Origin: Trypanosoma brucei
Lineage: Eukaryota
Assembly: GCA_000002445.1 (NCBI GenBank)
Contig: CM000208.1
Location: forward strand, 3,990,026 to 4,054,025
Reading direction: 5' to 3'
DNA length: 64,000 nucleotides
Below are positions 3,715 to 64,000 of the stretch, one piece after another (the first letter of the stretch is position 1; each line of letters opens with the position of its first letter). A program made the translations under genes and the position numbers. Under the pieces are notes generated by a model. It had not been told where the DNA came from, did not search any database, and was given only the letters and a program-made list of their open reading frames with translations.

Positions 3715-4300
<586 letters not shown>

Positions 4301-21284: not shown

Positions 21285-21375
21285 TTATGAATTTCAGTTG
21301 TGGTGATAATAATGATAATAATAATAATAGGAGAGTGTTGTGAGAATGTATATACTAATGTTATAAGGACATTAG
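21285..21375 (+). repeat. 70-bp repeat (1 copy). This is the 5' boundary of duplicated cassette copy 1.
   Basis: gtggtgataataatgataataataataataggagagtgttgtgagaatgtatatactaatgttataaggacattagtc. Confidence 0.85.
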
Positions 21376-28532: not shown

Positions 28533-28814
28533 TTAAGTTTTTAAAAGATTTTTGATCAATCTTATGAAACTCATAAAATTTGGTATTTTGACAGGATTTT
28601 CTAAAAAGGTGCAAATTAAGAAATTTTGAGAAAAAAAGTTAACATTTTCTCAAATATGTAAGAAACTGTCCTTTGGATGCAACATAATATGGTGATAATG
28701 CATTCAAAGAGATTAAAGTTATAAGAATGTTGCTATTTTGGTTCATATTATTTTATTTGTGTACATTAAGAGAAATTTACGGTTATCATAGCAATAGTTA
28801 TAGCATCAAGAAAG

Positions 28815-28995
28815 AAATATAAGTAGTGACACTGATAACACTGATGAAACTGATGATGATAATGATAGGAGAGTGTTGTGAGTGTGCATATACAAATATT
28901 ATAATAAGAGCAGTAATAATAATAATGATAATGATGATGATAATAATAGGAGAGTGTTGTGAGTGTGTATATACTAATATTATAATAAAAGTGGT
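28815..28995 (+). repeat. 70-bp repeats (2 copies)
   Basis: gatgatgataatgataggagagtgttgtgagtgtgcatatacaaatattataataagagcagtaataat... occurs twice. Confidence 0.9.
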
Positions 28996-32013: not shown

Positions 32014-32254
32014 TTGCTGCTGTCTTTATGAGTTTTGTATGCTTTTATAATTCAAGCGTTTTGCGTATTTTTGCTCAATTTTGTGGAATTTATGAAGTTT
32101 GATATACTTTAACGCTTTTGTAAAGCTTTTGAAAAATATGAAATTTTTAAAATATTGTGGCTTATGAGTATAAAGTAGTAGAGTGATATGGTATGAAAGA
32201 TGGGTAAAATTCTAAATTTTTCATATTTTGTTTATTGTAGGGATGTTGCTTAAG

Positions 32255-32430
32255 GTCATTGTAGGAATAATGATGATGATAAGATAGTTGTGAGTGTGTA
32301 TATATACGAATTTTATGATAGGAGCAGTAATAATGATAATAATGATAATAATAATAGTGATAATAATAATAGGAGAGTGTTGTGAGTGTGTATATATACG
32401 GATATTATAATAAGAGCAATGATGGCAGAG
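32255..32430 (+). repeat. 70-bp repeats (about 2 copies)
   Basis: ggaataatgatgatgataagatagttgtgagtgtgtatatatacgaattttatgataggagcagtaataatgataat...aggagagtgttgtgagtgtgtatatatacggatattataataagagc. Confidence 0.85.
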
Positions 32431-34875: not shown

Positions 34876-35119
34876 TTGCTGCTGTCTTTATGAGTTTTGT
34901 ATGCTTTTATAATTCAAGCGTTTTGCGTATTTTTGCTCAATTTTGTGGAATTTATGAAGTTTGATATACTTTAACGCTTTTGTAAAGCTTTTGAAAAATA
35001 TGAAATTTTTAAAATATTGTGGCTTATGAGTATAAAGTAGTAGAGTGATATGGTATGAAAGATGGGTAAAATTCTAAATTTTTCATATTTTGTTTATTGT
35101 AGGGATGTTGCTTAAGGTC

Positions 35120-35200
35120 ATTGTAGGAATAATGATGATGATAAGATAGTTGTGAGTGTGTATATATACGAATAATATAATAAGAGCAATGATGGTGTAT
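35120..35200 (+). repeat. 70-bp repeat
   Basis: ggaataatgatgatgataagatagttgtgagtgtgtatatatacgaataatataataagagcaatgatgg. Confidence 0.8.
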
Positions 35201-35945
35201 AATAACTACAAACCTAAGAGAAAGGCACTTAAAACAGTGGCAAAGTGAAATGGGAGTACATAATGGAGTCAAATAGAATACAAGAAATATTATTATTTAA
35301 AAGTTGCAGAAACGGAAAGTAAAGATGATAGAATGTGGTCATGTTAAAACATATACGGGACTATTGCATCATGATATCGACAGACTTGATGAAGGGTACA
35401 ATTAAGGAAAGAGTGAGTCCAGTATAGAATTATAATGCAGGCGCTACTTAATCATTAGTAATATAAGCATAAGAAAAGAGGAAGAAACATAATATGGAAT
35501 GAGACAATGCAATTAGCAAAAGCACAACGCAGAAAGAAAATTGTACAGGGGGAGATTGTGCTCCACATTTCACACACAAATGGATAGATGCAATTTCGGA
35601 AATGGTGGAGGCAGTGGTGTTCAACTTTATTGTGCAGTAACATGTCAAACATTAAACTCAGGTAGCTGAAAATGATGGCCTGCACATGGGTGTTTTCCAT
35701 AAAAGCAGAAAATCAGGAGCTCTAGAGTCCATTTGTTACCTGATTGTGAGTGTTTAGTTAGAGTGCTTCAAACGAATGTAAATTTTAATTTGAGGTGTAA
35801 AGAATACCGTGCCAGAGGAAATGGCAAATCACAAACAAAAAACATCAAAATGACTTACTTGGTTAACCATAATGAACTCAACTTTAACTGTCACTTTGGT
35901 AAGTGGACCTAAATCAAAGTCAATTACCAGGTTCATCAGCGGATT

Positions 35946-39084: not shown

Positions 39085-40640
39085 ATGTATAAAATAACTA
39101 CAAACTCTGCGCTGATTCTTATGTTGACGCATCTGATCCTGATGCGTTTACCGGTGCTGCGTGCCACAGGACGCACCCCGGCGCCAGACACAGCAGGCGG
39201 AAAAGTCGCAGACCTTTGCGGCGATGCCCGTTACACCAGGTTCCTAGTCGACAAGTTGATAGAAGATTACAAGGAAGCTTTAGCGGCTCTACCGGCCTTA
39301 TCAAGGGCGGCGAATTCTTATACAATAGCTGCGGGCAACCCCGCTACCCCAACAACGCAAGCCGCCATGCATGTACTGGCAGAAGTGCAAACAATGAAAG
39401 CGAATGCAGCAGCAGCAGAGCTAGCGACAGTAAACCCCCGCTACGACCTAGCAATAAAGCTACTCAAACAAAGGGAAGGCCGACTGCACGCAACCATCCA
39501 GTCGAGCTATAACCAAGTGACGCAAAGTGACGGCGCGACGATCGGCTCTGACACGGTAAAAGAGAAAGCCAGCACAGTAGGCTGCAAAGCAACAGCCACT
39601 CTCGTGCCAGACCAGTCAAAAAACTGCAGTTTAGCACGAGATGCAGACCACGCCGTAAAATACGCCGACGTTAATTTGAACAGCGCCACACAACTCCAGC
39701 ATGTAACGGAAGATTCGCTAAAACACCAAAAGATGATAGCCAAGGCGTTCGGCACAAGCACAGCCACGACAGCAACAACAGCGTCAACTCACCATCACGG
39801 ATTCTGCGTAGGTGCAAGCGACGGCCCCAGGTTAAACGGCGCGGGCGCGATACTAGGAGCCGAACTAGCAATTGAAGAGCGAACGGTAAACATAAAGCAG
39901 ACAAATCTTCACGAAATCGGCACAACAGGCACATGCACAGCAACAAAGATTACGGAACCATGGGGCAAGCAAGAAGAAGATACACTAGCATCTACACTTT
40001 GTACTATCAAGCAGCAAAAAGTAGCAAAAAGTCTGCCACTCCACAAGCAGCCACTAACAAACCTTGATATTAGTGTACAAATAGCAGAGGCTCTAAATCA
40101 GGTACAATCACCAGGATCACCACTAACAGATGACGCCAAAGAGAAAAAACAGCTTGTTAATAAGTATTTCGGGAGCAGTGACAACGAGTAAAAGCAAAGA
40201 TAGAGAAAGCAATCGAGACAACGGAGGTTGATGTGACAATCGGCAAAACAAAGATAAAAAAGTCACCCTTAGCACTTGCTGGAACAGATGAAGGTATTCA
40301 AGTCTTATCGTATTACTTTGGGAAGGATTTGGCTGCTAAAGCAGAGACAACTGTACTCGGACCTGTTCCTACAATGAACAAAGAAGCCAGCGACAAATTC
40401 AAAACAATAACAGACAAAGAGATATGAAAAACAACGGACGGATGTAAATATAAAAAATGCGTGGTAGGGGGTAAAGGTGAAGAAAAGAGGGGTGAATTTT
40501 CAGTGAAATTGCAAAATGCCCCCACTAAGACTACTTGATGCAAATGGGATAGAAAATAGTTCAAGGATTCCAGTTTTCTCGTAACTGAGAAATTTTCTTT
40601 GCTGTTGCTTTCGTGGGTTTGTTGCATATTCTCATTATAA
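39085..40640 (+). pseudogene. VSG: VSG pseudogene (type B N-terminal domain, 368-aa ORF, followed by frameshifted C-terminal remnants)
   Basis: The N-terminal domain ORF 39085-40191 (signal peptide MYKITTNSALILMLTHLILMRLPVLRA) stops prematurely. Downstream fragments in other frames read SYYFGKDLAAKAETT, CKYKKCVVGGKGEE and KDSSFLVTEKFSLLL. Confidence 0.8.
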
Positions 40641-45785: not shown

Positions 45786-48700
45786 TATGAAACATCACTG
45801 GTGAAACCGGCCACCTCATCATGGGACCCAGTGCCTAGTACTTCATCCAGGAGGAAGCTAAGTGCTCGCATTAAACCAGGCCCGACAGGATTGTGGTGGG
45901 CAAAAAGCTTTCGGTGACCAGAGAATGAGAAAGCAGCGGTATAGGCATCTGCGGTGAAGAAATACATTAGACTAATCTTCTGCACGTGCAAGTGTGCCTA
46001 TATTGGGATCCATAGGCTTATATTACTTCTTATAGTAGATTTGGAACGGAATTCCTGTCCTGTCCTTTGTGGAGCCCAGTGGAATTCTGTGGATTTCTCC
46101 AGGGCAAAGTGGAACGCCTTAGAGAAGAAACTCCACGAGTATATGGTAGTCTTCTGTCTATTGCGGGAGATTCACTTGGCAGTAGAAGAATACTGCGCAT
46201 TGAAAATTAGTAGATACCAACACATGGTGTCACATTCTCCGCATGGTGGTAAGGTATTAATTCTAGTGAGAGAACGCGTGAAAATCATCTAAGGTCCGAA
46301 GGAGGAAGCACTGCCGGAAAGAGTCTTGGAAAGCTAATGTTTTCATCTGATCTAATGTTAACTATAAAATCAGCTTACTTCACACGAAAGAAAATGTCAT
46401 TACCTCCACGGTTGAGTGCCTTGAAAGCTCAACAGTATCAGCGGTGATAGGATTTGATACAAACGCACATCACGAGTTATGGGACCCACTTCGCCCAAAT
46501 GGTACAGCAGGAGAATGCATTATAGGCTGATGTCTACGAAATGATATCAAAATTTCAAATGATGGCACCCCAACGAGAAGAATGACTCACACTGCAACCA
46601 TGTCGTCTCCAGATGTTACGATGTACAGAGACTGCGAATTCACAAGATGGAAGGCAAGCATCAGTCCGGATATTGACCACTACTGGATAACGTTTGAGGT
46701 ATGTATTGGGATTGATGTAGAAATGATCGCCATCACTAAGTCACGAAGTACGTTGCATGTTTTTAACGAAGCAAATTGGCAGGAGTTTCGAAAAGTGTAT
46801 GATGCCACAAAGGTGAAAAATTAAGGAATCGAAAAAGAAAGTGGATGCCATGAATGAGGCAGTGACTAAAGTCATTCGCACAGCAGCAAAGAAAACGATA
46901 ACGAAATGTAAGTGAGTATTGCTACAGTTCCGGACACAAGAACTGGCCGAAATGGACATAAAAATAAGAGAATGTACAAATGAAAAGCACAGAGATATTC
47001 TTATACACAAGAGAAGGAAGGTTTTTGCCGAAAATTCCCTACAGCGATGGAAGGAAAATGCGTTGAAGATGTCAGTGATTGACACAAAAAGTTGGAGTGT
47101 AGTCATGTCGGTGTATGCACTAAGGTCACTGTCATCTCCGGTTATGGTAGTGAATGACCACCCCCTAACACGCAGACAGCAAGCCAATAAGCTAGCATAG
47201 ACGTATTGAGAGAGCGGTTGACAAGAGCACTAGATGCTCCTCCCATGAGTACACCATATCGAGTGAGCGTAGAATTCGCACCAATAACGATTTAAGAACA
47301 TGAGACAGCACCAAAAGACCTCTATTCAGGCACTGCCACCGGTAAAGACAATACACATTGTGAACTGTTGAATTAATCAGGACGCCGTAGCAAGAAATGT
47401 GTCATACAGTTCTTCAACTGCGCCCTACAGGGACACAAGGTGCCGAAGAAGTGGAATCAGGAAGTTATCGTCTAACTGCTCAAACACGACAAACCGGTCA
47501 AGTGTATATCATCGTTTCGGCACATCACGGTCACTAGCATGCACTGTAAGTTCATGGACAGGATTGTAGAGAGACGCATACAGGACACAGTAGAATGTAA
47601 GCTACAAATACAGTAAGCTGGTTTTCGTCCAGAGAGGTCTACGTTAGAGGCCCTGATGGCACTCACAGACTTCGTGACACATAGAATAGCAGGAGAGACA
47701 GCCGCAGCGGTATTCATATATTATGTGGGGGCATTTGACTCTGTAGAGCACAGGTATATAATAGAATCACTAAAAAAATATGAGGTAGACATGCACCTCA
47801 TTACATGTGTTGCAAATTTCCTGGATGGATGGACTGCAGTAGCAAGAATAAACAACACCCTTTCAAATAAAATACAATTCACATGTGGTGTTCCGCAAGG
47901 GTCTGTATTGGGGCCGTTACTATTCATTATCTCAATGCACTCCTTTAGCGCGAAATTGAATGCCATACCAGTCCTTAAACACTGCTTCTTCGCAGAAGAC
48001 CTCACAATAGTATGCTCTTACACTGACCGGAAAGCTATTAGGAAGACACTACAAACAGGATGAGATTGCATAGCAAGCTGCTCGACAGAGCATTAAATAG
48101 AGGTGTCCGCCGATAAAACGGAGTACACGTTCTTCAAGGTTAGAAAGACAGAGACTCATTACATCTAATGATGTGAGAACACAGATTAAATGAGACGAGA
48201 AATCCCATAATCCTTGGGGTGACGATGCAGCCACACAGTGGTGTAAGAAAACATGCTCACAACATACAAACAGCAGCAAATACAAAATTAATGAAACTAC
48301 GGGCCGTTGCATTACCTGAATGAAGGGTGAGCAAAGAAAGCTTCCGAGCATTTTACGTAGCCTAATCCAGATAAAGTTATGTTATGGGATAGCTGCGTGG
48401 TGGTTAAATGCTTCTTCATCTATCAAGAAGAAGCTTGAACGAGTACAAACGCAGGCTTCACATGTTGTCGCGGGTATTTCAAAGTGCGCGAATCGGCATG
48501 ATGTTATGAAGGAGTCTCACCTTCACACGATAGATGATATTGATCATAGACGAACAATAGAATACTGTTGAACAAGGAAGGTGAACGGTAAGGCATCAGC
48601 CGATACAGTGGGGAAAATGTTCCCACCCAGTCATCCAATACACACGCACCTGCAAAGCGTATCACACTTGTATGAGGAAGTAGACAGACCGGAAAAGTCA

Positions 48701-51100
48701 CACACGGCAAGCGTATTGCAACCGATGAAGATATCGTACTTCAATACCATAACATCAGGTGGTCTCCATTATGACTCTTCAGACAGCGAAAAGAAAAGAC
48801 ACACAATGCAAATGGTATGTAGATTCAGAGACTACGATTATCAAGTGTAGACGGATGGGTCGGTAATACTGTACGAATCCTCTGGCACCACCGTAATAAT
48901 ATACCCTAGACAAGGTAATGCAGTAAGGGTGAAGAAGGGAACAAGCAGGTTATCGTGCAGCTACAGAGCCGAGTGTGCAGCTATGGATGCAGGAATTATA
49001 AAACTTAAGACAACAATAAAGATCAATGAGAGCAGAAAAATGAAAGTGTAAATATTCACAGAATCGTTGCCCTTATTAATGGAGCTCAAAACAGGTCCTG
49101 CAGCAGTGACTGATTTTATTCTACGACGCATATGGGATCTGATCATACACTTCATGAAACTGAGAGTAGCCATGTCGTTTCAGCTTGTGTTTTGGCATTG
49201 CGGTATGCAGAGAAATGACAAAGTAGACACGCTCACAAACAAAGGAAACCACGTGCCGCAACCCTACCCTGCACGGATTACCCACATTGTCACGGGTATA
49301 ACACGCCAATTACTTAATCAGGAACAATGCGAATTTGCGGAAGGCTGAGGCCCAAACACACACCACAGTGCGTTACTAAGCTATATAAAAACGACCCAAA
49401 AATAAAGCAGCTAGGAAGGGAAGATGAGTCACCTTTAGCTCAATTTAAACGAGGGACTTAAAAACATTTTTGGTAGTTACATAGGGTGATCACATGAAAG
49501 ATTAAAGAAGTGGAGTGTAGATGGTATAAAAATCACCATGGGAAATTTTTTTAATAATTCCCCTGCCCCACTCAAAACACTGTAAAGATAGAAGAAACTG
49601 AGGAAGGCAAGATGGTATTAGCTACAAGACAGAATAACTAGATCATATGCACAGTGTGCAATATCGTGTGTGCGAGAAGACAAGCAGGGGCTGTTCACAT
49701 GATGAAAATACATCAGTGTGTTCGTGAAAATGCACTAGCTGTATTAACGATTGCTCCAAGAGCAGAACAGGTATATGATGGTGTCTATCGATGTCACGTA
49801 TGCGGTAAAGTATTCGACAGAAAGTAGCTACTGCAAGAACAAATCCCACAACACCCTCCAACAGATCAATTAGTATGTACAGAGCAGCAAAAGAGGAAAC
49901 GGGAAGAAGAAAAACAGTCGTTACCAACTGTTCACAAGTTTCAGTGGTGCCCAAAGCAGTATGGCAGGCATGGCTGGTTTTCTAGACATATACATCTGAC
50001 ACGTCCTGAAAAGCAAACCGATTTGACAAAACAAACGGAAATACAGGATGTGAGCAGGGAAGATGAACAAGCGCAAGCACTACAAGCATATGAACGTCTC
50101 AACTGCAAACAGGTGTATAGAAACAAAACCTGGTTCACCAGACATAAGTGCATACCGGAGCTGAGTGAACGGGAACCAAGCGCACCACTACAATAAATAC
50201 TGTTGGAGAGAGAAACATGTAAGATATGCAGTAAAGAATACCACCACAGCTGGATGTTGAGCCATATGACTGCAAAACATCCCGGGAACGACATTTCACT
50301 CAGACCACAGCCGATAAAGATAAGAAAAGTGAAGAAGGAGATATCAAAGTTTCAAACAAAGAAGAACACCGGTGGTGAAAACAAAAATAATGATGACAAT
50401 AATACACCACGTTATGTTTGTGACAAATGTAATAGGGTTTTCAAAAGCAGGCATGGCTAACACACCACAAGTGCGTGATCATCGAGAACGCGGACCTAAA
50501 AATGGGAGAAAGTGAACAATCCCCATGGATAAGCTACACATCTAGAAACCACTACCAAAAATGGATTGAATCCCGGCACCATGGATAGAGCGCTTCTCAA
50601 CTCAGACTTGTTACACACAACAAAACTTGAGCTCCACGACAAGAAAGAGAGAAAGAGGAACCGAGCATGACACGTCAGCAGATGAAATGAATATATGCGA
50701 TCAGAAAGAGGAGCCGAAAAACAAACGGCATAAGGATCAATGGCACACAGATAACCCCGTAGAGAGTTTGCATGTGGAAGGCGTAAGAACACCTACATGT
50801 CATGGTGTACACCAGTTTGGCATACCAACACACACCACAAAAGTGCAATCACTTTAAAGAGGGAGTGTGAAAAAGGACCCCTTTAAATCACACCGCTAGC
50901 CCCTCTCAGCCACCAATGCCCACTCTGCTCGAAGGTATGTTCACACAAGCAATATCTAACAATGCATGTCCAAGCAGAAAATGCGGAGACACGTAGCTTT
51001 TATAGGCGAAATGAGCTAAAAGAGATATGTAAAGAAACATCGATTCACCTGTTACAGTGTCCGGCTTTGAGTAAACTCAGGTATTAGCATGTAGTAGACA
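45786..51100 (+). mobile_element. Degenerate ingi-type (ingi/RIME/DIRE family) non-LTR retrotransposon; 3' boundary uncertain
   Basis: AP-endonuclease-like ORFs 45954-46292 (...FCLLREIHL...GGKVLILVRE) and 46582-46824. Reverse transcriptase motifs in 47656-48063 (AFDSVEHRYIIESL; GVPQGSVLGPLLF; FFAEDLTIV, the YxDD-box position). RNase H-like motif HCGMQRNDKVDTLTNKG in 49067-49348. C2H2 zinc finger (CKICSKEYHHSWMLSHMTAKH; YVCDKCNRVFKSRHG) in 50203-50460. All are + strand in different frames with many stops, so the element is degenerate. Confidence 0.75.
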
Positions 51101-51850: not shown

Positions 51851-53122
51851 CGACGAAGATAAAACAGAAGGGAAAATACAAGCACTTAAAACAATGGCAG
51901 GGTGCAATAGGAGGAAGTTAGTCAGTTGTAGATAGCGTGAGGAATAGTAACATCTCTAAAGGAGTGAAAGAAAGAAATGAAGATAGTATATGCACGGTTT
52001 TAAATACAACCATGCAGGTAGATATCGTAACACGCAAGAAAGGAATGAAGGCAACAATAAGAAAAAAGAGTCCAGTGTGCAGTGCACATACAAAATCGAA
52101 TCTGTACATTATATTCGTAAAGACTGTCAAGGCGAAAAAATGTAAATAAAATGTACAATGAAACAGCTGTACGCGATGCAGCGTAGAACAGAAAAAATTA
52201 TATATCAGGAAGAGAAGACGCCAATAAATTGCTGAATATTAATGAAAAAATAAATGAAACAACTGCTATAGTAGCAACTGTGCATTTTTACCTTATAGTG
52301 GATCCCAAATTTAAGAATTTAACTCACGTGGTGGTTCTCTTTTATAAAATGAATGCGAGGCTTTTGGTTGGAAAAATGAGGAGTTGTAGGGGAACTGTTA
52401 AAGATGAGGAATGAATATGGTTTGGTACATTATACCTGCAGGTAGCTCGAAGTCAGGGTTTTTAAAAGCCCTTACTTGTCAAAAGTTGGTTCTACAGAAA
52501 AAACAATCAAATATTATAAAAAGTGCAACAGTAACCCCAGAAATAGCAAGTAAGGCATATACGCCAAGTATCAAAAAACACAAGCAATCCATGAAATTCA
52601 ACTAACTGCAAGATTAGCATAAGCAGTATTACAGGAGATACAATAAAAACCGAAAATAGAAATGACACTAAATTCCAAGATAGTGCAGTTTAGTAAGTGA
52701 CGGATGACAGAAGCAGCTAAATTAGTGGCTAAACTCGTACGAAGACAAACAGCAACTGGAAAAGATATTCCTGTGGTGTGATGGCCTGCATGTGTGGGAA
52801 ATCAAATAAGTTTAACATAGAATAAATAGAGGAGATAAGTTCAATAGAAGAGAAAGTTTCTTCCTTAATTAGACGAATAAATTTTAAATATAACAACAAA
52901 ATTTAAAAAGTCGGAAGAAATTGAAATCAGAACAAAAGAGTTTTACCCCTGAAAAAAACACCGACACCTCTAAAAAGCCAAACAGAAGCAGAATTACTCG
53001 TCAATGCTATTAATGTGAATAGAAAAGAATTAAGAGACACTTTTCCTGTTTTTAAAAACAAAAAGAAGGACGTAGAGAGAGTTCAGCACTCGGTGGAAGC
53101 TGGATTATTACACTCAGACAAA

Positions 53123-54360
53123 ATGCCAGCAAAAAAGTTTGCGGTAATTCTCGTCTGCTGCTACCTCACAGACCAAACGGCGTCTGAAACGACGGAGGAC
53201 ATTGCAAACGCCACCGCGACGACACCTTGTACACTGAGTGCATACTACAGAGCTATAGAAACCAAACTAACTAACTGCATAAACGATGCGGCAGCCGCTC
53301 CTCAAAAATTAAACACGAAGCGGGCGCCGAAGCCCTAATGAAAATTCTAACACAAAGCGGCGGGGGAAACAACGTGGGCTGCAAAGTAACGACGACGTCG
53401 ACGTTAACCACTGAGACCTAATTAGAAAGGGGAAGAAATGGAAGTAATAAAGGCCCAAAAGATAGGAGAAAGTCTCAAAACAATCACAAAACTGACGATC
53501 TACAAAAAGGAAAGCCTCAAGATGCCGGACCTAAGCGCGATAATCGAGGCCCAGGCACCATAGCAGGCGACACCAACTAGAAAGCAGGGAACGGCGACAT
53601 GCAATTCCAAAAATCCATGGCAGTGGAAGCAGTGGCCCAAGCCCAGAACACGGTAGCAGTCTAGCAGATAAAACTAACAGCAAAGGTGGAGGCAACAATC
53701 GAAACATTAGCTGATATCATCCAGGCAGAGCCACAAGAACAAAACAGGGGTCACAGCGAAAAACTGCCGCCACAGACGCCGCCAAAAACCCACCGGTAGT
53801 ACTGATGGACGAACAGCTAGAAACGATAGCAGTGGATTCAGAAGCAACAGCTACGCACACCTTCATGCAGAAGCCTACGGGTGCTGGCCTCAAAAAGTCC
53901 CCCTAAGCAAAAGAAGTCTCAATTTTGATTTTTGGCACTGCAACTGGCGCAGTGGACAACGTTTTTCTGTAACCCGTCAGAACGGACGCAGTTTCAGTCC
54001 CTACAGCTGGAAACGACATCAAAACGAACATAAAAGCAATTGCAGTCCAAGAAGGTTTCTAACAAGCGATGGCTTATTACTAAGCACTTAACAGGAAAAA
54101 ACAGCAGCTAATGGAGCAGGAACAAAGCCTGAAGGAGACGAAAAAACAGATACAACAGAAGAAATAGTAAAAATAAAGAGGGGGGATAATAAATCCGCAA
54201 CTGCAAATTGCACCAGCTATTCAACACAAGATGCCTGTACAAAAGGGAAGAATTACAAATGGGAAAATAACGCATTCAAGGATTCCAGTTTGCTGATCAA
54301 TAAGAAATTGGCTCTGATGGTTTCTGCTGCATTTGTGAGTTTTCTGCTTTTAATTTTTCA
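53123..54360 (+). pseudogene. VSG: VSG pseudogene: third, heavily decayed member of the 23173/27039 family, with a different C-terminal domain and GPI tail
   Basis: Upstream 52740-53100 matches 22790-23170 and 26660-27010 (ctggaaaagatattcctgtggtgtgatggcctgca...gacgaataaat). The N-terminus MPAKKFAVILVCCYLTDQTASETTEDIANATATTPCTLSAYYRAIETKL matches copy 2. After that there are many in-frame stops, frameshifts and an internal deletion. It ends CTKGKNYKWENNAFKDSSLLINKKLALMVSAAFVSFLLLIF. Confidence 0.85.
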
Positions 54361-54544: not shown

Positions 54545-54615
54545 TAGGGTTACAACAATAATAATAATGATGATAATTGGAGAATGTTTTGAGTGTGTTT
54601 ATACTAATATTATAA
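54545..54615 (+). repeat. 70-bp repeat (1 copy). This is the 5' boundary of the duplicated telomeric-type cassette.
   Basis: aataataataatgatgataattggagaatgttttgagtgtgtttatactaatattataacaataattg. The same junction recurs at 60980-61045. Confidence 0.85.
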
Positions 54616-55707
54616 CAATAATTGTGGTGAAAACCGAATGCGCGGAAAAATAGAGGAAGTTAAAATAAAGTTTAGAATATATAAAAATAATTGAACCTGT
54701 TGGAGAAAGAGCACAAAAATTACTATTTTAAAGAAAATTTTGATAAGAAGGGCAATTATGTGCGGTTTAAGTGCAGAAATGACAAAAGGTATTATAACAA
54801 ACAAGAAGAAGGTTGAAATATGAAAGACACAGTAAAAAGCTGTGGTGTGAAGTTTTCACGGTTTACTAAAAAATATAAGTAACAGAATCTGTAGAATAAA
54901 GTGGAAGAAAAACAAGAAACCTTAAAATAATAAGAAAATACTTTGATGGGTAATAAGTGGAAAAATTTTATATAAAGTAGGAAAAAGTTTCAATGATACA
55001 TTGCTAATTTTATACTTATATAAGGGTAATAAGGTAACACTATTTAGCGAGCAGGTGCTCCATATTAGTATTTGGTCTTGTCTTCAATTTATGAAGAGAT
55101 TTAACAAGTTACAACATTTAAGATAGGGTAAGACATTCCAAAAATTAACGATTCATAAATGGAAACAACCTGAAAGAAACAAAGTTTTGAACGAGCGATA
55201 AACAAACTAGTTTCTTTTCAAAAACCTAAGATGTTTTATTCTCACAAAAATAACATGTAACAAATCAAAATTAGCAGCGTACGAAAGTAGTTAAAATAAG
55301 TAAGGTTTGAAATTCTAAAAATAAAAAAATATGTGATACTTTAAAGATTGACAGGAGTGGATTGAGTCAGCGATAAATTCAATATATATGTATAAAAAAC
55401 ATAGAATTAATGGCATACTGTGGTTGACAAACAAAAGTGAGGCTAAATTTTTTTCATGATAACCATGAGGTTCTATAGTGAAACCCTCATTTTGACAGTT
55501 TGAACATAAAACACATACAACCATTTAGACAAATAATTCACACATCACAAAAAAAGGGTATAGTAACTTTGGGCTTTTTGAATATTATTTCAACAAAAAT
55601 ATGCGAATTATTTAACTTTACAGAACCCAGACCATCTTTAAAAGCCCAAACCCTAGTCTCAACTTTGCAGCAAACACAACGCTAAAGATCAGAGGTCTAA
55701 CTTTAAA
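54616..55707 (+). other. Upstream block (co-transposed-region-like) of VSG cassette copy A; duplicated at 61041-62139
   Basis: Minus-strand ORF 54610-54804 is identical to 61041-61235. ORF 55500-55685 is about 90% identical to 61932-62132 (MNIKHIQPFRQIIHTSQKKGIVTLGFLNIISTKICELFNFTEPRPSLKAQ…). Confidence 0.8.
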
Positions 55708-57159
55708 ATGCGTTTAGAGGTGCGACAAGCAGTTAGCAAAAGCCTGCCCGTGCACGCAATCGACTTTCTGATCGTGTTCGTGACTCTAACAATGCGTACG
55801 GATGCAGCGTTTAAAGAAGATGCGGCGGCCGACATGCACCTTCTTTGCGAGGCAATGGCGTTGGAAAACGTAGAACCAGCAGCGCCGACACTAGCTGACA
55901 ACTTCGACAATGATATTAGCGAATTGCGCATAATGAATATGTTTACAGCCGACGATAGCTGGCGAAGCAATTTCAAAGGCGACCCCAAAACGGACACATG
56001 GGAAGCCCGTAGCAAGGGCTGGTGCAACAGAGCCATTTGTATCTCATTGGCAAGGCGAATTCACCAAGTGGCAGCAGGACTACCAAACGGCGGAGGTTGC
56101 AAACAATCCGAAAACCTGACTAGCAAACAACCCACCACCGCAGGGACCGTACGCCAAAAGACTGGAGCACAGACAGATCAACGACACACTAGTGGAAGTA
56201 GCAGCCAAGATTGAGAGCTACAGGAAAAGTAAACAAAAGATAGTGCCGGACGGCGTCAAGAAAGTGAAGGAGCTTATTTCAGAGGCACTGTACGGCATTG
56301 GTCAAACAGATTACACGGAAAAGACAGGCAGCACGTACACTTCCTCTACCATTTACACGGCCGCGTGCGGCGTGAACGGCGGCAAGAGCATCGTAGGAGA
56401 TCTGCTATGTATATGTTGCCAAGCCGCATCCGGCACAACCAATGCATGCAACAACAGCGGCGTAAGCTGCAACTGGACCGGCGCAATGACAACTCACGTC
56501 ACCACCCTCAAAGCCAAATGTCCATCAAAGAAGCCGACTAAACCAACCTTAGCGACGTTAATGCAATTGTCGTACAGCTCAAGAGCGGCATCCGTAAGGG
56601 CAAAAAGTGGAACGCAATCAAATTCTACCTCAGCGGCGACCTCGCCACCTGTGACGGCGCAACAGACAAAACTTGCGTTGACTACAGCGCGCACTACGCT
56701 GCTGGCAGCAGCAAGAGTGGAGTCGACAGCATACCATGGATAGCCAAACTCAACGACGCCATCACCGCCATGGAAGAGATGGAGAAAGATGCCCAGAAAG
56801 CCAGAGAAGAAGCAAAGGAAGTACGGATGCTAATAGCCGCTGCGAAAAGAGCGTACAGGATTGCCATCGAGCCTTAAATGAAACAAAGCAACGAACCAGC
56901 CAAAAGCAGTGAAGCAGAAACAAAAATGCAGCAGCCAACCGAAACAGAAGATAGATGCAACAAAAAGGGGCAAAATGAATGCAACTCCCCATGCAAGTTG
57001 GTTGAAGAAGGTGGCACAAAGAAGTGCAAATTGGATAAGGAGGAAGTAAAAAAGATAACAGATGAGGCTGCAAAGGATGCAAAAACAAACACCACAGCCA
57101 GCAATTCTTTCGTCATTCACAAGGCCCCTCTTTTGCTTGCAGTTTTGATTATAGCATAA
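55708..57159 (+). pseudogene. VSG: VSG pseudogene (type B), a paralogue of the terminal VSG, with at least two frameshifts
   Basis: MRLEVRQAVSKSL...AFKEDAAADMHLLCEAMALENVEPAAPTLADNFDNDISELRIMNMFTADDSWRSNFKGDPKTDTWEARSKG matches the terminal VSG, then falls into the frame that the terminal gene uses only as an alternative ORF (GWCNRAICISL…). The middle ORF 56192-56743 and the C-terminal-domain ORF 56878-57159 (…CNSPCK…KCKLDKEEVKKITDEAAKDAKTNTTASNSFVIHKAPLLLAVLIIA) continue the alignment. Confidence 0.85.
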
Positions 57160-57394
57160 GGCTTTTAATAACTACTGGCAAAAGCTTTTCTCAAAATTAA
57201 AAATTTATTTTTTTTATTTTGAGAGGGATTGTTTAAATCGTTTAAATTTGACATATTTTTAACACTTTGGGATAGAAATGTAAAAATTCGAAACATTATG
57301 CTCGATTTTGACATCTTTGTGTAAAGTAAAACTGTGACAGAGTACAGAAAATGAATGGCATTATGAAATTTCATAGTTAGATTTATTTTGTTTA

Positions 57395-60335
57395 TTTGTG
57401 AATAGTAACAGTAATAGTAATAATAATAGGAGAGTATTGTGAGTGTGTGTATATACGAATATTATAGTAAGAGCAGTAATAATAATAATAATGATAATAG
57501 TAATAATAATAATAATAATAGGAGAGTATTGTGAGTGTGTATATATACGAATATTATAATAAGAGCAGTAATAATAATGATGATAATAATAATAATAGGA
57601 GAGTGTTGTGAGTGTGTGCATATACGAATATTATAATATGAGCAGTAATAATAATAATAATGATAATAGTAATGATAATAGGAGAGAGTGTTGTGAGTGT
57701 GTGTATATACAAATACTATAATAAGAGCAGTAATAATAATACTGATAATAATAATAGGAGAGTGTTGTGAGTGTGTTTATACTAATATTATAATAAGAGC
57801 AGTAATAATAATGATGATAATAATAATAATAGGAGAGTGTTGTGAGTGTGTGCATATACGAATATTATAATATGAGCAGTAATAATAATAATAATGATAA
57901 TAGTAATGATAATAGGAGAGAGTGTTGTGAGTGTGTGTATATACGAATATTATAATAAGAGCAGTAATAATAATAATAATGATGATATAATAATGATAGG
58001 AGAGAGTGTTGTGAGTGTGCGTATATACGAATATTATAATAAGAGCAGTAATAATAATAATAATGATAATAATGATAATAATAATAATAATAGGAGAGTA
58101 TTGTGAGTGTGTATATATACGAATATTATAATAAGAGCAGTAATAATAATGATGATAATAATAATAATAGGAGAGTATTGTGAGTGTGTATATACAAATA
58201 CTATAATAAGAGCAGTAATAATAATAATAATGATAATAATAATAATAATAATAATAATAGGAGAGTATTGTGAGTGTGTATATATCCGAATATTATAATA
58301 AGAGCAGTAATAATAATGATGATAATAATAATAATAGGAGAGTATTGTGAGTGTGTATATACAAATATTATAATAAGAGCAGTAAAATAATAATACTAAT
58401 GATAATAGTAATAATAATAATAATAGAAGAGTGTTGTGAGTGTGTGTATATACGAATATTATAATTAGAGCTGTATTAATAATAATGAAAATAGAAGAGT
58501 GTTGTGAGTGTGTGTATATACGAATATTGTAATAAAAGCAGTAATAACAGTAATGATAATAATAATAATGATAGGAGAGTGTGTTGTGAGTGTGTGTATA
58601 TACGAATATTATAATGAGAGCAAAAATAATAATACTAATAATGATAATAATAATGATAGGAGAGTGTGTTGTGAGTGTGTGTATATACGAATATTATAAT
58701 AAGATCAGTAATAATGATAGTAATAATGATAATAATAATGATAATAATAATAGGAGAGTGTTGTGGCTGTGTATATACGAATATTATAATGAGAGCAAAA
58801 ATAATAATACTAATAATGATAATAATAATGATAGGAGAGTGTGTTGTGAGTGTGTGTATATACGAATATTATAATAAGAGCAGTAATAATAATAATAATA
58901 ATGATAGGAGAGTGTTGTGAGTGTGTGTATATACGAATATTATAATAAGAGCAGTAATAATAATGATGATAATAATAATAATAGGAGAGTATTGTGAGTG
59001 TGTATATACAAATACTATAATAAGAGCAGTAATAATAATAATAATGATAATAATGATAATAATAGGAGAGTATTGTGAGTGTGTATATACAAATACTATA
59101 ATAAGAGCAGTAATAATAATAATAATGATAATAATAATAATAATAATAATAATAGGAGAGTATTGTGAGTGTGTATATATACGAATATTATAATAAGAGC
59201 AGTAATAATAATGATGATAATAATAATAATAGGAGAGTATTGTGAGTGTGTATATCCAAATATTATAATAAGAGCAGTAAAATAATAATACTAATGATAA
59301 TAGTAATAATAATAATAATAGAAGAGTGTTGTGAGTGTGTGTATATACGAATATTATAATTAGAGCTGTATTAATAATAATGAAAATAGAAGAGTGTTGT
59401 GAGTGTGTGTATATACGAATATTGTAATAAAAGCAGTAATAACAGTAATGATAATAATAATAATGATAGGAGAGTGTGTTGTGAGTGTGTGTATATACGA
59501 ATATTATAATGAGAGCAAAAATAATAATACTAATAATGATAATAATAATGATAGGAGAGTGTGTTGTGAGTGTGTGTATATACGAATATTATAATAAGAT
59601 CAGTAATAATGATAGTAATAATGATAATAATAATGATAATAATAATAGGAGAGTGTTGTGAGTGTGTGTATATACGAATATTATAATAAGAGCAGTAATA
59701 ATAATGATGATAATAATAATAATAGGAGAGTATTGTGAGTGTGTATATACAAATATTATAATAAGAGCTGTATTAATAATAATGAAAATAGAAGAGTGTT
59801 GTGAGTGTGTGTATATACGAATATTATAATTAGAGCAGTAATAATAATGATGATAATAATAATAATAGGAGAGTATTGTGAGTGTGTATATACAAATACT
59901 ATAATAAGAGCAGTAATAATAATAATAATGATAATAATAATAATAATAATAATAATAGGAGAGTATTGTGAGTGTGTGTATATACGAATATTATAATAAG
60001 AGCAGTAATAATAATAATAATGATAATAGTAATAATAATAATAATAATAGGAGAGTATTGTGAGTGTGTATATATACGAATATTATAATAAGAGCAGTAA
60101 TAATAATGATGATAATAATAATAATAGGAGAGTATTGTGAGTGTGTATATACAAATACTATAATAAGAGCAGTAATAATAATAATAATGATAATAATGAT
60201 AATAATAGGAGAGTATTGTGAGTGTGTATATACAAATACTATAATAAGAGCAGTAATAATAATAATAATGATAATAATGATAATGATAGGAGAGTGTTGT
60301 GAGTGTGTATATACGAATATTATAATAAGAACAGT

Positions 60336-60370
<35 letters not shown>

Positions 60371-60424
60371 TAATAGGAGAGTGTTGGGAGTGTGTGTATA
60401 TACAAATATTATAATAAGAGCAGT

Positions 60425-60465
<41 letters not shown>

Positions 60466-61040
60466 TAGGAGAGTGTTGGGAGTGTGTGTATATACAAATA
60501 CTATAATAAGAGCAGTAATAATAATGATGATAATAATAATAGAAGAGTGTTGTGAGTGTGTTTATACTAATATTATAATAAGAGCAGTAATAATAATGAT
60601 GATAATAATAATAATAGGAGAGTGTTGTGAGTGTGTGCATATACGAATATTATAATATGAGCAGTAATAATAATAATAATGATAATAGTAATGATAATAG
60701 GAGAGAGTGTTGTGAGTGTGTGTATATACAAATACTATAATAAGAGCAGTAATAATAATACTGATAATAATAATAGGAGAGTGTTGTGAGTGTGTTTATA
60801 CTAATATTATAATAAGAGCAGTAATAATAATGATGATAATAATAATAATAGGAGAGTGTTGTGAGTGTGTGCATATACGAATATTATAATATGAGCAGTA
60901 ATAATAATAATAATGATAATAGTAATGATAATAGGAGAGAGTGTTGTGAGTGTGTGTATATACGAATATTATAATAAGAGCAGTAATAATAATACTGATA
61001 ATAATAATAGGAGAGTGTTGTGAGTGTGTTTATACTAATA
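57395..61040 (+). repeat. 3.6-kb array of 70-bp repeats (about 50 units) with higher-order duplicated blocks
   Basis: Continuous reiteration of (TAA/TGA)n + AGGAGAGTGTTGTGAGTGTGTATATACGAATATTATAATAAGAGCAGTAATAATAAT. Exact block repeats show in the ORF track: 57631-57855 = 60650-60874; 58107-58298 = 59805-59996; 58508-58699 = 59403-59594. Confidence 0.95.
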
Positions 61041-62139
61041 TTATAACAATAATTGTGGTGAAAACCGAATGCGCGGAAAAATAGAGGAAGTTAAAATAAA
61101 GTTTAGAATATATAAAAATAATTGAACCTGTTGGAGAAAGAGCACAAAAATTACTATTTTAAAGAAAATTTTGATAAGAAGGGCAATTATGTGCGGTTTA
61201 AGTGCAGAAATGACAAAAGGTATTATAACAAACAAGAAGAAGGTTGAAATATGAAAGACACAGTAAAAAGCTGTGGTGTGAAGTTTTCACGGTTTACTAA
61301 AAAATATAAGTAACAGAATCTGTAGAATAAAGTGGAAGAAAAACAAGAAACCTTAAAATAATAAGAAAATACTTTGATGGGTAATAAGTGGAAAAATTTT
61401 ATATAAAGTAGGAAAAGTTTCAATGATACATTGCTAATTTTATACTTATATAAGGGTAATAAGGTAACACTATTTAGCGAGCAGGTGCTCCATATTAGTA
61501 TTTGGTCTTGTCTTCAATTTATGAAGAGATTTAACAAGTTACAACATTTAAGATAGGGTAAGACATTCCAAAAATTAACGATTCATAAATGGAAACAACC
61601 TGAAAGAAACAAAGTTTTGAACGAGCGATAAACAAACTAGTTTCTTTTCAAAAACCTAAGATGTTTTATTCTCACAAAAATAACATATAACAAATCAAAA
61701 TTAGCAGCGTACGAAAGTAGTTAAAATAAGTAATGTTTAAAATTCCAAAAATAAAAAAATATGTGACACTTTAAAGATTGACAGGAGTGGATTGAGTCAG
61801 CGATAAATTCAATAGATATGTATGAAAGAAGCTTGGGATTAAAGACGCAGAGCTTTTAAAAAACAAAATTTATGCTAAATTTTTGTCATTATAACCATGA
61901 GGTTCTATAGTGAAACCCTCATTTTGACAGTTTGAACATAAAACACATACAACCATTTAGACAAATAATTCACACATCACAAAAAAAGGGTATAGTAACT
62001 TTGGGCTTTTTGAATATTATTTCAACAAAAATATGCGAATTATTTAACTTTACAGAACCCAGACCATCTTTAAAAGCCCAAAGCCTAATCTCAACTTTAA
62101 ACCAAGCACAACGACGAATATCAGAGGTCTAACTTTAAA
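61041..62139 (+). other. Co-transposed-region-like upstream block of the terminal VSG (copy B of 54616-55707)
   Basis: See 54616-55707. It lies between the 70-bp array and the VSG start, as in expression-site-type cassettes. Confidence 0.8.
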
Positions 62140-63591
62140 ATGCGTTTAGAGGTGCGTCAAACACTTAAGCCAAATGTGACAAAACGCGCACTCGCAACTC
62201 TGACCGTACTCACGACGGCCGCACTGCGGGCCGAAGCTGCGTTCAAAGCGGACGCAGCCGCCGACATGCACCTTCTTTGCGCAGCAATGGCAATCGAAAA
62301 AGTAGAACCAGCAGCGCCGACACTAGCTGACAACTTCGACAATGATATTAGCGAATTGCGCAGAATGAATATGTCGACAGCCGACGACAGCTGGCGAAGC
62401 AATTTCAAAGGCGACCCCAAAACGGACACATGGGAAAGCCGCAGCAAGGCTGGTGCAACAGAGCCATTTGTATCTCATTGGAAAGCCGACTTCGGCAAGT
62501 GGCAGCAAGACTACCAAACGGCGGAGGTCGCAAACAAGCCGAAAACCTGGCTAGCAGACAACCCACAACCGCAGGGAACATACGCCAAAAAAGTAGCGCA
62601 CAAACTAATAAACGATACCCTAACTGAACTGATAACCAAGATCGCGGACTACGCACAAACCAAACACAAGATAGCCCAAGCAGGTGCAACGAAGGTGAAA
62701 GAGCTAATCTCAGAAGCACTATACGGCGCCGGCCAGACAAGCTTCGAACCGAAAAGCGACGCTACGTACAAGTACTCCAGCAACTACGGCACCGCCTGCG
62801 GCGGCAACGGAGGCATGAGCATCGCAGGCGACTTACTCTGCATATGCTGCCAAGCCACAACCGGCACTACCAATGCGTGCGACAATAGCGGTATACAATG
62901 CGACTGGTCATCAAACAACATGAACAATCACATCGCCACAGTAAGAAAGAAGTGCCCCACAAGCAAGCCATCTAAGCTAACCTTAGCAGGACTCATACAG
63001 CTAGCAGCTCAACTAAAAGCCGGCATCAGGAAGGGAGCCAAAGGCACCGCAGTCGCCTTCTACCTCGGCGGAAGCCACGACACCTGCGACGGCACCACCG
63101 ACCAAACTTGCGTTGACTACACCGCACATTACGGCGCTGGCGGCACCAAAAGCGGAGTCAACAGCATACCATGGATAGTCAAGCTCAACGACGCCATCGA
63201 AACCATGGAAGAGATGGAGAAAAATGCCCAGAAGGCCAGAGAAGAAGCAAAGGAAATCCGGATGCTAATAGCCGCTGCGAAAAGAGCGTACAGGACCGCA
63301 ATCGAGCCTTCAATGAAACAAAGCAACGAACCAGCCAAAAGCAGTGAAGGCCAGACGAAGATGCAGCAGCCCAGCGAAACAGAAGATAGCTGCAACAAAA
63401 AGGGGCAAAATGAATGCAACTCTCCATGCAAATGGAATCCCGAAGCAGAGGGGAAAAAATGCAAATTGGACAAGGAGGAAGTAAAAAAGATAGCAGATGA
63501 GGTTGCAAAGGATGCAAAAACAAACACCACAGGAAGCAATTCGTTTGTCATTAGCAAGGGCCCTCTTTTGCTTGCATTTTTGCTTTTTTAA
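62140..63591 (+). CDS. VSG: Intact telomere-adjacent VSG (type B N-terminal domain), 483 aa
   Basis: Uninterrupted ORF with signal peptide MRLEVRQTLKPNVTKRALATLTVLTTAALRAEA, Cys pattern GTACGGNGG…LLCICCQATTG…CDNSGIQC, C-terminal domain CNKKGQNECNSPCKWNPEAEGKKCKLDKEE, and GPI signal GSNSFVISKGPLLLAFLLF. A perfect 16-mer TGATATATTTTAACAC lies at 63643-63658, and the telomere repeats begin about 130 bp after it. Confidence 0.95.
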   Translation: MRLEVRQTLKPNVTKRALATLTVLTTAALRAEAAFKADAAADMHLLCAAMAIEKVEPAAPTLADNFDNDISELRRMNMSTADDSWRSNFKGDPKTDTWESRSKAGATEPFVSHWKADFGKWQQDYQTAEVANKPKTWLADNPQPQGTYAKKVAHKLINDTLTELITKIADYAQTKHKIAQAGATKVKELISEALYGAGQTSFEPKSDATYKYSSNYGTACGGNGGMSIAGDLLCICCQATTGTTNACDNSGIQCDWSSNNMNNHIATVRKKCPTSKPSKLTLAGLIQLAAQLKAGIRKGAKGTAVAFYLGGSHDTCDGTTDQTCVDYTAHYGAGGTKSGVNSIPWIVKLNDAIETMEEMEKNAQKAREEAKEIRMLIAAAKRAYRTAIEPSMKQSNEPAKSSEGQTKMQQPSETEDSCNKKGQNECNSPCKWNPEAEGKKCKLDKEEVKKIADEVAKDAKTNTTGSNSFVISKGPLLLAFLLF

Positions 63592-63642: not shown

Positions 63643-63658
63643 TGATATATTTTAACAC
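63643..63658 (+). promoter_or_regulatory. Conserved VSG 3' UTR 16-mer, the known mRNA stability element of VSG transcripts
   Basis: Exact TGATATATTTTAACAC 52 nt after the stop codon of the terminal VSG. The same exact 16-mer occurs at 20181-20196. Degenerate versions follow most other VSGs, for example 37547-37562. Confidence 0.85.
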
Positions 63659-63789: not shown

Positions 63790-64000
63790 TAGGTAGGTTA
63801 GGGTTAGGGTTAGGGTTAGGGTTAGGGTTAGGGTTAGGGTTAGGGTTAGGGTTAGGGTTAGGGTTAGGGTTAGGGTTAGGGTTAGGGTTAGGGTTAGGGT
63901 TAGGGTTAGGGTTAGGGTTAGGGTTAGGGTTAGGGTTAGGGTTAGGGTTAGGGTTAGGGTTAGGGTTAGGGTTAGGGTTAGGGTTAGGGTTAGGGTTAGG
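63790..64000 (+). repeat. Telomere: about 34 TTAGGG repeats, with the G-rich strand running 5' to 3' to the end of the window (a chromosome right end)
   Basis: gggggggtagttaggtaggttagggttagggttaggg..., then perfect hexamers to position 64000. Confidence 0.97.

What the first reader, a model, noticed from the sequence alone, without database searches (positions are those of the whole stretch)
54545..63591. A 2.6-kb cassette (70-bp repeat, upstream block and VSG) is directly duplicated on both sides of the 3.6-kb 70-bp array, consistent with a duplicative gene-conversion footprint
Block 54545-57159 (single 70-bp repeat, ~1.1-kb upstream block, VSG) is repeated at 60980-63591. Homology starts at a 70-bp repeat and ends at the VSG 3' end, which are the classical boundaries of VSG duplicative transposition. 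The array-side copy is a pseudogene with at least two frameshifts, one just after ...WEARSKG and one before the C-terminal domain, plus amino-acid divergence. The telomeric copy is intact. There are two possible explanations. The internal cassette may be the decayed donor, or a relative of the donor, of the telomeric gene. Alternatively, segmental conversion may have repaired a pseudogene template into an intact telomeric VSG. The two direct repeats could also mediate loop-out or deletion of the whole 70-bp array.
Basis: seen in the sequence. Interest (0 to 1): 0.7.

Follow-up and report, generated by a model that had tools for sequence, protein, structure and literature searches.

The report
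Patchwork duplicate of a telomeric VSG cassette
At a Trypanosoma brucei chromosome end, the last surface-antigen (VSG) gene cassette and the broken one before it are true 2.6-kb duplicates, but their similarity runs from 100% to about 58% in blocks, the expected trace of repeated patchwise gene conversion in this gene family and not a single copy-and-decay event.

Summary
Window 54554-57150 aligns with 60985-63585 as one 2,611-column match at 86.6% identity. The match starts inside a 70-bp repeat and ends at the VSG stop codon. It flanks a 3.65-kb 70-bp array, and TTAGGG repeats lie 205 bp past the second VSG. The window is a chromosome end of T. brucei TREU927, and the telomeric VSG is the annotated XP_828094.1.

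The single-event interpretation is not supported. Identity is strongly blocky:
- non-coding upstream block: 99.2% over 795 bp, then a 76-bp patch at 68%, then 100% over 192 bp
- signal-peptide region: 58%
- codons about 41-150: 92%
- core of the N-terminal domain: 65%, with synonymous divergence above 1
- C-terminal domain: about 90%, with a 28-bp patch at 43%

Synonymous divergence spans 0.09 to above 1, against under 1% in the upstream block. The two cassettes are therefore old paralogues, or an old duplication, later reshaped by several segmental conversions. The newest tract begins in the 70-bp repeat.

The pseudogene has two frameshifts, two nonsense codons and a 3-nt deletion. Most of these are isolated changes inside high-identity blocks, which points to decay in place.

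This is a good example of known VSG biology, and its interest is modest.

The parts
54554..54618 (+). Single 70-bp repeat at the 5' edge of the inner (pseudogene) cassette. Its 3' half, from 54590, is identical to the last repeat of the big array.
54619..55707 (+). Non-coding upstream block (co-transposed region), copy A. It is 96.3% identical overall to 61050-62139. Within that, 54590-55384 is 99.2%, 55385-55458 is 68%, 55459-55650 is 100% and 55651-55728 is 86%.
   Evidence: no ORF of 67 aa or more and no Rfam match
55708..57158 (+). B-type VSG pseudogene. Lesions: +1 (extra G at 56016), TGA at 56117-56119, 3-nt deletion at 56476, -1 at about 56568, TAA at 56875-56877. The repaired reading is 71% identical in protein and 79% in DNA to the telomeric VSG.
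57159..57400 (+). 3' flank of the pseudogene. It is not homologous to the telomeric 3' UTR and carries a degenerate copy of the VSG 16-mer (TGACATATTTTTAACAC, 57249-57265).
57401..61049 (+). 70-bp repeat array of about 46 units. A 234-bp higher-order unit (75/85/74 bp) sits at both ends, and there is an internal 895-bp duplication. The last unit (60985-61049) is the 5' edge of the telomeric cassette.
61050..62139 (+). Non-coding upstream block (co-transposed region), copy B.
62140..63591 (+). Intact telomeric B-type VSG of 483 aa, identical to XP_828094.1 / EAN78982.1 of T. brucei brucei TREU927. Its C-terminal domain resembles that of MITat 1.2.
63643..63658 (+). Perfect copy of the conserved VSG 3' UTR 16-mer TGATATATTTTAACAC.
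63796..64000 (+). Telomere repeats, (TTAGGG)n, running to the window end.

Best explanation
These are the last two cassettes of a subtelomeric VSG array on a TREU927 megabase chromosome. Each is a standard unit of 70-bp repeat, co-transposed region (CTR) and VSG. The two VSGs belong to one B-type family.

The pair began either as a cassette duplication bounded by 70-bp repeats or as two family members that came to lie side by side. It was then reworked several times by homologous recombination in short to medium tracts (segmental gene conversion). Some tracts passed between the two copies. Others came from family members elsewhere in the genome. This left at least three age classes:
- a very recent tract from the middle of the 70-bp repeat through most of the CTR (under 1% divergence)
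- intermediate tracts in codons about 41-150 and in the C-terminal domain (dS about 0.1-0.35)
- old or imported blocks in the signal peptide, the N-terminal core and two short patches (dS about 1 or more)

The inner copy then decayed in place by point lesions.

Shown here: the block structure, the boundaries and the lesions. Inferred: the conversion mechanism, which rests on established RAD51/BRCA2-dependent VSG recombination. Weakly inferred: the direction of the newest tract, from the telomeric cassette to the inner one.
For: The match and its boundaries:
- There is one contiguous 2.6-kb HSP.
- The newest tract starts exactly at the GAGTGTG core of the 70-bp repeat, and homology ends at the stop codon.

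The block structure:
- Change-point analysis finds 11 blocks from 100% to 43% identity.
- The longest identical run is 392 bp, against a maximum of 98 in 5,000 permutations.
- P(1 or fewer differences in 667 bp) is 3e-26 even at the lowest coding dS.
- The index of dispersion of differences within the CDS is 4.4, against a permutation maximum of 1.7.
- dS per 40-codon bin runs from 0.09 to above 1.

No other cause for CTR identity:
- The CTR has no sizeable ORF and no Rfam match, so coding or RNA constraint does not explain it.

Comparison with a relative from another strain:
- In residues 61-150 the two copies are closer to each other (83-93%) than either is to the Lister 427 relative VSG-3073 (63-77%).
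- In the core, all three are about equally distant from one another.

Lesions:
- Three of the four disabling lesions are single-base differences inside 90-92% blocks.

The same process is visible elsewhere:
- A second tandem cassette pair (21.3-29.0 kb) has 100% identical flanks and diverged coding patches. In one patch, one twin matches a third relative 25 kb away at 86-96% but matches its own twin at only 54-72%.
- A deposited expressed T. brucei VSG (AGQ50253.1) is the telomeric VSG at both ends with a middle section from a third family member.

Literature:
- VSG pseudogenes sandwiched between two 70-bp tracts next to a telomeric VSG occur in Lister 427 BES1, 14 and 15 (PMC2567434).
- Family-restricted, short, templated mosaic conversion has been shown experimentally (PMC12137147; PMC13233330).
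Against: - No third-party donor for the diverged blocks was found, because only this window could be searched. Imported blocks therefore cannot be separated from old, unconverted blocks.
- The direction of each tract is unresolved. The telomeric-to-inner direction for the CTR rests only on the junction half-repeat being in phase with the array's 234-bp higher-order pattern.
- I could not test whether this CTR is shared by all members of the family genome-wide.
- Misassignment of reads between near-identical CTR copies in a Sanger-era assembly cannot be formally excluded.
Confidence: 0.75

Rival explanations
1. A single duplicative gene conversion copied the internal cassette into the telomeric site, or the reverse. 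All later differences are point-mutation decay of the unexpressed inner copy.
For: The boundaries are at a 70-bp repeat and the VSG 3' end. The inner copy carries disabling lesions.
Against: Divergence differs by more than 100-fold between neighbouring blocks. The CTR has 1 difference in 667 bp, while the core has dS above 1. Block edges are sharp, and diverged patches of 28-99 bp are embedded in near-identity. Point decay cannot produce this pattern.
Confidence: 0.04
2. Pseudogene repair. The telomeric gene was built from the inner pseudogene template, and its defective parts were overwritten by segments from other family members. That would be stepwise mosaic assembly at a silent telomere.
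For: The telomeric gene is intact and the inner copy is not. The -1 frameshift at about 56568 lies inside the 65% core block, which could be a replaced segment. Mosaic assembly in silent telomeric sites has been proposed (PMC2567434).
Against: The +1 frameshift and both nonsense codons are isolated single-base differences inside 90-92% blocks. That is what later decay of the inner copy would look like, and not what repair by patch replacement would look like. No donor for the supposedly repairing segments was identified.
Confidence: 0.12
3. The near-identity of the upstream block reflects functional constraint on the co-transposed region and not recent recombination.
For: The CTR is known to influence expression-site behaviour (Davies et al. 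1997, cited in PMC4858185). The block is 96% identical overall, against 79% for the coding sequence.
Against: A 76-bp patch at 68% sits inside it. It has no sizeable ORF and no Rfam match. No other cassette in the window shares it. The identity begins exactly inside the 70-bp repeat, a recombination boundary and not a functional one. A second cassette pair in the window shows the same identical flanks.
Confidence: 0.05
4. Assembly artefact. Reads from one CTR were used to build both copies, or the cassette was artificially duplicated across the repetitive 70-bp array.
For: The 70-bp arrays are hard to assemble (PMC2567434). The 100% stretches are shorter than a Sanger read.
Against: The two VSG bodies are clearly different genes. 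The CTR copies differ at 40 of 1,091 columns, including a 1-nt and a 2-nt indel and a diverged patch, so they were resolved separately. The region contains no Ns.
Confidence: 0.03

Closest known systems
VSG pseudogenes sandwiched between two 70-bp repeat tracts upstream of the telomeric VSG in Lister 427 expression sites BES1, BES14 and BES15 (Hertz-Fowler et al. 2008, PMC2567434; '70.I/70.II' in PMC4858185)
   Same: Both have a short upstream 70-bp tract, then a VSG pseudogene, then a long 70-bp array (here about 46 units; 39 in BES1), then the CTR, an intact VSG and the telomere. The same explanations have been proposed: a cassette copied next to another instead of replacing it, a partly assembled mosaic, or decay in place.
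   Different: No expression-site-associated genes were found in the 62 kb upstream. The site is the end of a silent VSG array, not an expression site. Here the sandwiched pseudogene is a paralogue of the telomeric VSG and shares a nearly identical CTR with it.
Mosaic VSG formation by segmental gene conversion among family members (Hall et al. 2013, PMC3708902; PMC12137147; PMC13233330)
   Same: Both show alternating blocks of different ancestry between genes 73-90% identical, short patches of tens of bp, and participation of pseudogenes. The telomeric VSG also appears as the backbone of a deposited expressed mosaic.
   Different: The published mosaics were read from expressed genes in an active expression site. 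Here the patchwork is fixed in two silent genomic copies and extends into the non-coding upstream block.
Classical duplicative transposition of a VSG cassette, with the 5' limit in 70-bp repeats and the 3' limit in the VSG 3' end
   Same: The outer limits of homology are exactly these.
   Different: A fresh duplicative transposition gives uniform near-identity. Here only about 1 kb at the 5' side is near-identical.
Tandem cassette duplicates within silent VSG arrays
   Same: The two copies are adjacent, in the same orientation and separated by 70-bp repeats. A second such pair lies at 21.3-29.0 kb in this window with the same patchy pattern.
   Different: The spacer is a 3.65-kb 70-bp array where the other pair has a few repeats, and the distal copy is telomeric.

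Membership tests
VSG gene cassette | One or more 70-bp repeats upstream of the gene | tested here: met
   There is a single repeat at 54554-54618, and a 3.65-kb array ends at 61049.
VSG gene cassette | ORF with a VSG N-terminal domain and a C-terminal domain with a hydrophobic GPI signal | tested here: met
   Pfam VSG_B scores E = 6e-73 for the telomeric copy and 2e-61 for the repaired pseudogene. Residues 399-483 match the MITat 1.2 C-terminal domain at E = 2e-27. The tail ...SNSFVISKGPLLLAFLLF was read from the sequence.
VSG gene cassette | Conserved 16-mer TGATATATTTTAACAC in the 3' UTR | tested here: met
   A perfect copy lies at 63643-63658. The pseudogene has only a degenerate 17-nt version at 57249-57265.
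Telomeric VSG | TTAGGG repeats within about 0.2-1.6 kb downstream | tested here: met
   (TTAGGG)n starts at 63796, which is 205 bp after the stop codon. The published range is in PMC2567434.
Bloodstream expression site (BES) | ESAG genes between a promoter and the 70-bp array | tested here: not met
   The large ORFs tested with Pfam gave VSG domains or no match, apart from one reverse-transcriptase remnant. No cyclase, LRR or transferrin-receptor hits were found. Promoter motifs were not tested.
Simple donor and copy pair from one duplicative transposition | Uniform near-identity across the whole transposed unit | tested here: not met
   There are 11 blocks from 100% to 43% identity, and dS runs from 0.09 to above 1.
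Mosaic (segmentally converted) VSG pair | Statistically significant clustering of differences into blocks | tested here: met
   Permutation and binomial tests and change-point segmentation.
Mosaic (segmentally converted) VSG pair | Identified donors for the imported blocks | tested here: inconclusive
   No donor lies within the window. The rest of the genome could not be searched with these tools.
70-bp / pseudogene / 70-bp sandwich next to a telomeric VSG | A VSG pseudogene flanked on both sides by 70-bp repeats immediately upstream of the terminal cassette | tested here: met
   Described for BES1, 14 and 15 in PMC2567434.

The most novel reading that the evidence does not exclude
The nearly identical upstream block may be kept homogenised between the two neighbouring cassettes. 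It would then serve, with the shared C-terminal end, as a pair of homology arms that make this silent, non-expression-site telomere a local workshop. Segments of the adjacent pseudogene and of distant family members would be shuffled into the telomeric gene before it is ever expressed. This would be direct genomic evidence for the long-proposed assembly of mosaic VSGs outside the active site.
Probability: 0.1. Interest if true: 0.55.

Novelty: new member of a known kind. Interest (0 to 1): 0.28.

Why it matters
The locus gives a clean, quantifiable genomic example of how silent VSG cassettes evolve. The outer limits are set by the 70-bp repeat and the VSG 3' end. Inside those limits lies a patchwork of conversion tracts of very different ages, reaching into the non-coding co-transposed region. 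A pseudogene sits one repeat array away from an intact telomeric family member that appears to have been used as a mosaic backbone in infection. It adds no new mechanism. It is a useful test locus for three things: the direction and tract length of conversion between silent copies, deletion between direct repeats that would remove a whole 70-bp array, and the question of whether mosaics are pre-assembled at silent telomeres.

Tried and rejected
- Exact-protein look-ups for independent assemblies of this locus found nothing on record for either the telomeric VSG or the first pseudogene ORF. Presence or absence in other assemblies could not be checked.
- LaCount et al. 2001 (looked up by DOI) and Marcello and Barry 2007 (looked up under a PMC id recalled from memory) were not found in the paper library.
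- I considered that the telomeric gene might be GUTat 10.1, the VSG expressed by the genome strain. I rejected this because that gene is listed as A-type (Tb10.v4.0001) and this one is B-type.
- I could not match the gene to a Tb927 or Tb10.v4 identifier, nor to a set in Hall et al.'s Table S1.
- I searched the window for donors of the diverged patches and found none.
- I looked for pseudogene-specific residues in the expressed mosaic AGQ50253.1. There are only 3, so there is no evidence that the pseudogene contributed to it.
- An Rfam scan and a small-ORF scan of the upstream block were both negative.
- A 2026 preprint on telomeric VSGs concerns another strain and says nothing on this locus.
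- That AGQ50253.1 comes from Hall et al. 2013 is inferred from its date and accession neighbourhood. It was not verified.
Full report
**Provenance and setting**

The 483-aa ORF at 62140-63591 is 100% identical to XP_828094.1 / EAN78982.1. That protein is a putative VSG of Trypanosoma brucei brucei TREU927 on a 4,054,025-bp record. (TTAGGG)n runs from 63796 to the window end, so the window is a chromosome end.

Upstream lie several VSG genes and fragments in the same orientation. Pfam finds VSG A-type, VSG B-type and VSG C-terminal domains in them. There is also a reverse-transcriptase remnant at 47656-48063. I found no ESAG-like genes. The 292-aa ORF at 2103 matches SRA/VSG and not the transferrin receptor. 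The site is therefore the telomeric end of a silent VSG array and not a bloodstream expression site.

**Checking the observation**

blastn of the two regions gives a single HSP, 54554-57150 vs 60985-63585, at 86.6% over 2,611 columns.
- a single 70-bp repeat at 54554-54618
- a 1,089-bp non-coding block at 54619-55707, matching 61050-62139, with only these two copies in the window
- a B-type VSG
- a 3,649-bp 70-bp array between the copies, 57401-61049, of about 46 units

The inner gene is a pseudogene. It has an extra G at 56016, directly after ...WEARSK, and a 1-nt deletion at about 56568. It also has TGA at 56117-56119, TAA at 56875-56877 and an in-frame 3-nt deletion at 56476.

**Boundaries**

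At the 5' side the first 36 columns (54554-54589) are 78% identical, which is the level of any two 70-bp repeats. From 54590, the GAGTGTG core of the repeat, identity jumps to 99%.

At the 3' side, homology ends in the last codons of the GPI signal. The 3' UTRs do not align. The telomeric copy has a perfect VSG 16-mer at 63643-63658. The pseudogene has only a degenerate version at 57249-57265.

**The key result: identity is blocky**

A penalised change-point analysis gives the following blocks, in A coordinates:

| Block (A coordinates) | Identity | Note |
|---|---|---|
| 54590-55384 | 99.2% | |
| 55385-55458 | 68% | |
| 55459-55650 | 100% | |
| 55651-55728 | 86% | |
| 55729-55827 | 58% | signal peptide |
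| 55828-56159 | 92% | |
| 56160-56668 | 65% | N-terminal core |
| 56669-56996 | 90% | |
| 56997-57024 | 43% | |
| 57025-57150 | 90.5% | |

Within 54590-55256 (667 bp) the only difference is a 1-nt change in the length of an A-run.

Nei-Gojobori dS in 40-codon bins runs from 0.09 to above 1, which is saturated. The statistics are:
- The longest identical run is 392 bp, against a maximum of 98 in 5,000 column permutations.
- P(1 or fewer differences in 667 bp) is 3e-26, even at the lowest coding dS.
- Within the CDS alone, the index of dispersion of differences is 4.4, against a permutation maximum of 1.7.

The upstream block has no ORF of 67 aa or more and no Rfam match. Coding or RNA constraint therefore does not explain its identity.

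**Interpretation**

A single duplication followed by decay cannot leave non-coding DNA at under 1% divergence next to synonymous sites at saturation. The pair is either an old duplication or two family members lying side by side. In either case it has been reworked by several conversion tracts of different ages.

The newest tract starts in the 70-bp repeat and covers most of the co-transposed region. It is interrupted by a 76-bp unconverted or imported patch. Older tracts cover codons about 41-150 and the C-terminal domain.

A comparison with the Lister 427 relative VSG-3073 supports this. In residues 61-150 the two copies are 83-93% identical to each other, but each is only 63-77% identical to the relative. 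In the core, all three are about equally distant. The pseudogene's signal-peptide block is the outlier: it is 30% identical to the relative, against 67% for the telomeric copy.

Three of the four disabling lesions are single-base differences inside 90-92% blocks. This favours decay of the inner copy in place over repair of the telomeric copy.

**Direction of the newest tract (weak inference)**

The end of the array has a 234-bp higher-order pattern of three unit types (75/85/74 bp). The half-repeat that joins the telomeric CTR at 61022 is the in-phase next unit of that pattern. The same variant occurs at 57769, 60554 and 60788. The inner cassette's single repeat carries this variant only in its 3' half, behind a different 5' half. 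One step explains this if the tract was copied from the telomeric cassette into the inner one. The reverse direction needs later spread of the variant through the array.

**Supporting context**

A second tandem cassette pair, 21306-25124 vs 25169-28991 at 95.8%, has 100% identical flanks and diverged coding patches. In patch 23097-23247 the second twin is 86-96% identical to a third relative at 52755-54184, but only 54-72% identical to its own twin. Segmental exchange between cassettes is therefore visible elsewhere in this same subtelomere.

A deposited expressed T. brucei VSG, AGQ50253.1, equals the telomeric VSG over residues about 1-140 and about 390-482. Its middle section resembles the VSG-3073 lineage. 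Only 3 of its residues are pseudogene-specific. It is probably from the TREU927 infections of Hall et al. 2013, but I did not verify this. The telomeric gene, or an identical copy, has therefore served as a mosaic backbone. There is no evidence that the neighbouring pseudogene has been used.

**Comparison with what is known**

The layout of short 70-bp tract, VSG pseudogene, long 70-bp array, VSG and telomere is described for Lister 427 BES1, 14 and 15. The authors proposed the same candidate explanations there (PMC2567434; 70.I/70.II in PMC4858185).

Mosaic formation restricted to family members, by short templated tracts, needing about 100 bp of imperfect homology and dependent on RAD51 and BRCA2, has been shown experimentally (PMC12137147; PMC13233330). 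It has also been documented in TREU927 infections (PMC3708902).

This locus differs in three ways. The site is not an expression site. The pseudogene is a paralogue of the terminal gene. The patchwork reaches into the non-coding upstream block.

**Loop-out**

Direct repeats of 795 bp at 99.2% and 192 bp at 100%, 6.4 kb apart, are plausible substrates for deletion of the pseudogene plus the whole 70-bp array. Nothing here tests whether that deletion occurs.

**Limits**

Only this window could be searched for DNA. No donor for the diverged blocks was found in it. Exact-protein look-ups for other assemblies found nothing. Two key older papers were not found in the library. Promoter content was not tested.

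**Verdict**

The duplication is real and well bounded. The single gene-conversion footprint reading is only partly right. The pair is a multi-layer mosaic of a known kind in a published genome, and its interest is modest.

Noticed in passing
window 21306-25124 vs 25169-28991: A second tandem VSG cassette duplication: 95.8% over 3.8 kb, with 100% identical flanks and coding patches at 72-88%. In patch 23097-23247 the second twin matches a third relative at 52755-54184 (86-96%) far better than it matches its own twin (54-72%).
   Followed up: partly
window 57401-61049: The 70-bp array has internal higher-order structure. A 234-bp unit of three repeat variants (75/85/74 bp) occurs at both ends (57610-57928 and 60554-61021). 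An 895-bp block is duplicated (units from 58182 repeated from 59077).
   Followed up: partly
window 31768-32342 vs 34630-35205: The 3' ends and downstream flanks of two adjacent A-type VSGs (30403-32013 and 33337-34875) are 97.7% identical over 576 bp. This suggests a shared or converted 3' segment.
   Followed up: no
window 45900-51000 (RT domain at 47656-48063): An ORF-poor stretch carries a reverse-transcriptase fragment (Pfam RVT_1, E = 3e-14). It is probably a degenerate retroelement, located about 1.8 kb upstream of a VSG relic (52755-54184) and about 3.6 kb upstream of the pseudogene cassette.
   Followed up: no
window 3739-4292: A 550-bp tract is about 70% identical to the 70-bp array. 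It looks like an old, degenerate 70-bp repeat block far from the telomere.
   Followed up: no
protein P0002 (AGQ50253.1) vs window 62140-63591: A deposited expressed VSG is identical to the telomeric VSG at both ends. Its central part (about 250 residues) comes from a third family member related to Lister 427 VSG-3073/393.
   Followed up: partly
window 18585-20201, 27009-28532, 39085-40191: Long ORFs with no Pfam match at E of 0.01 or better. Two show VSG 3'-end features in the DNA: a GPI-signal-like match at 28502-28542 and the VSG 16-mer at 20182-20197. For 39085-40191, VSG character rests only on its position in the array. They may be VSG types that the Pfam models recognise poorly.
   Followed up: no
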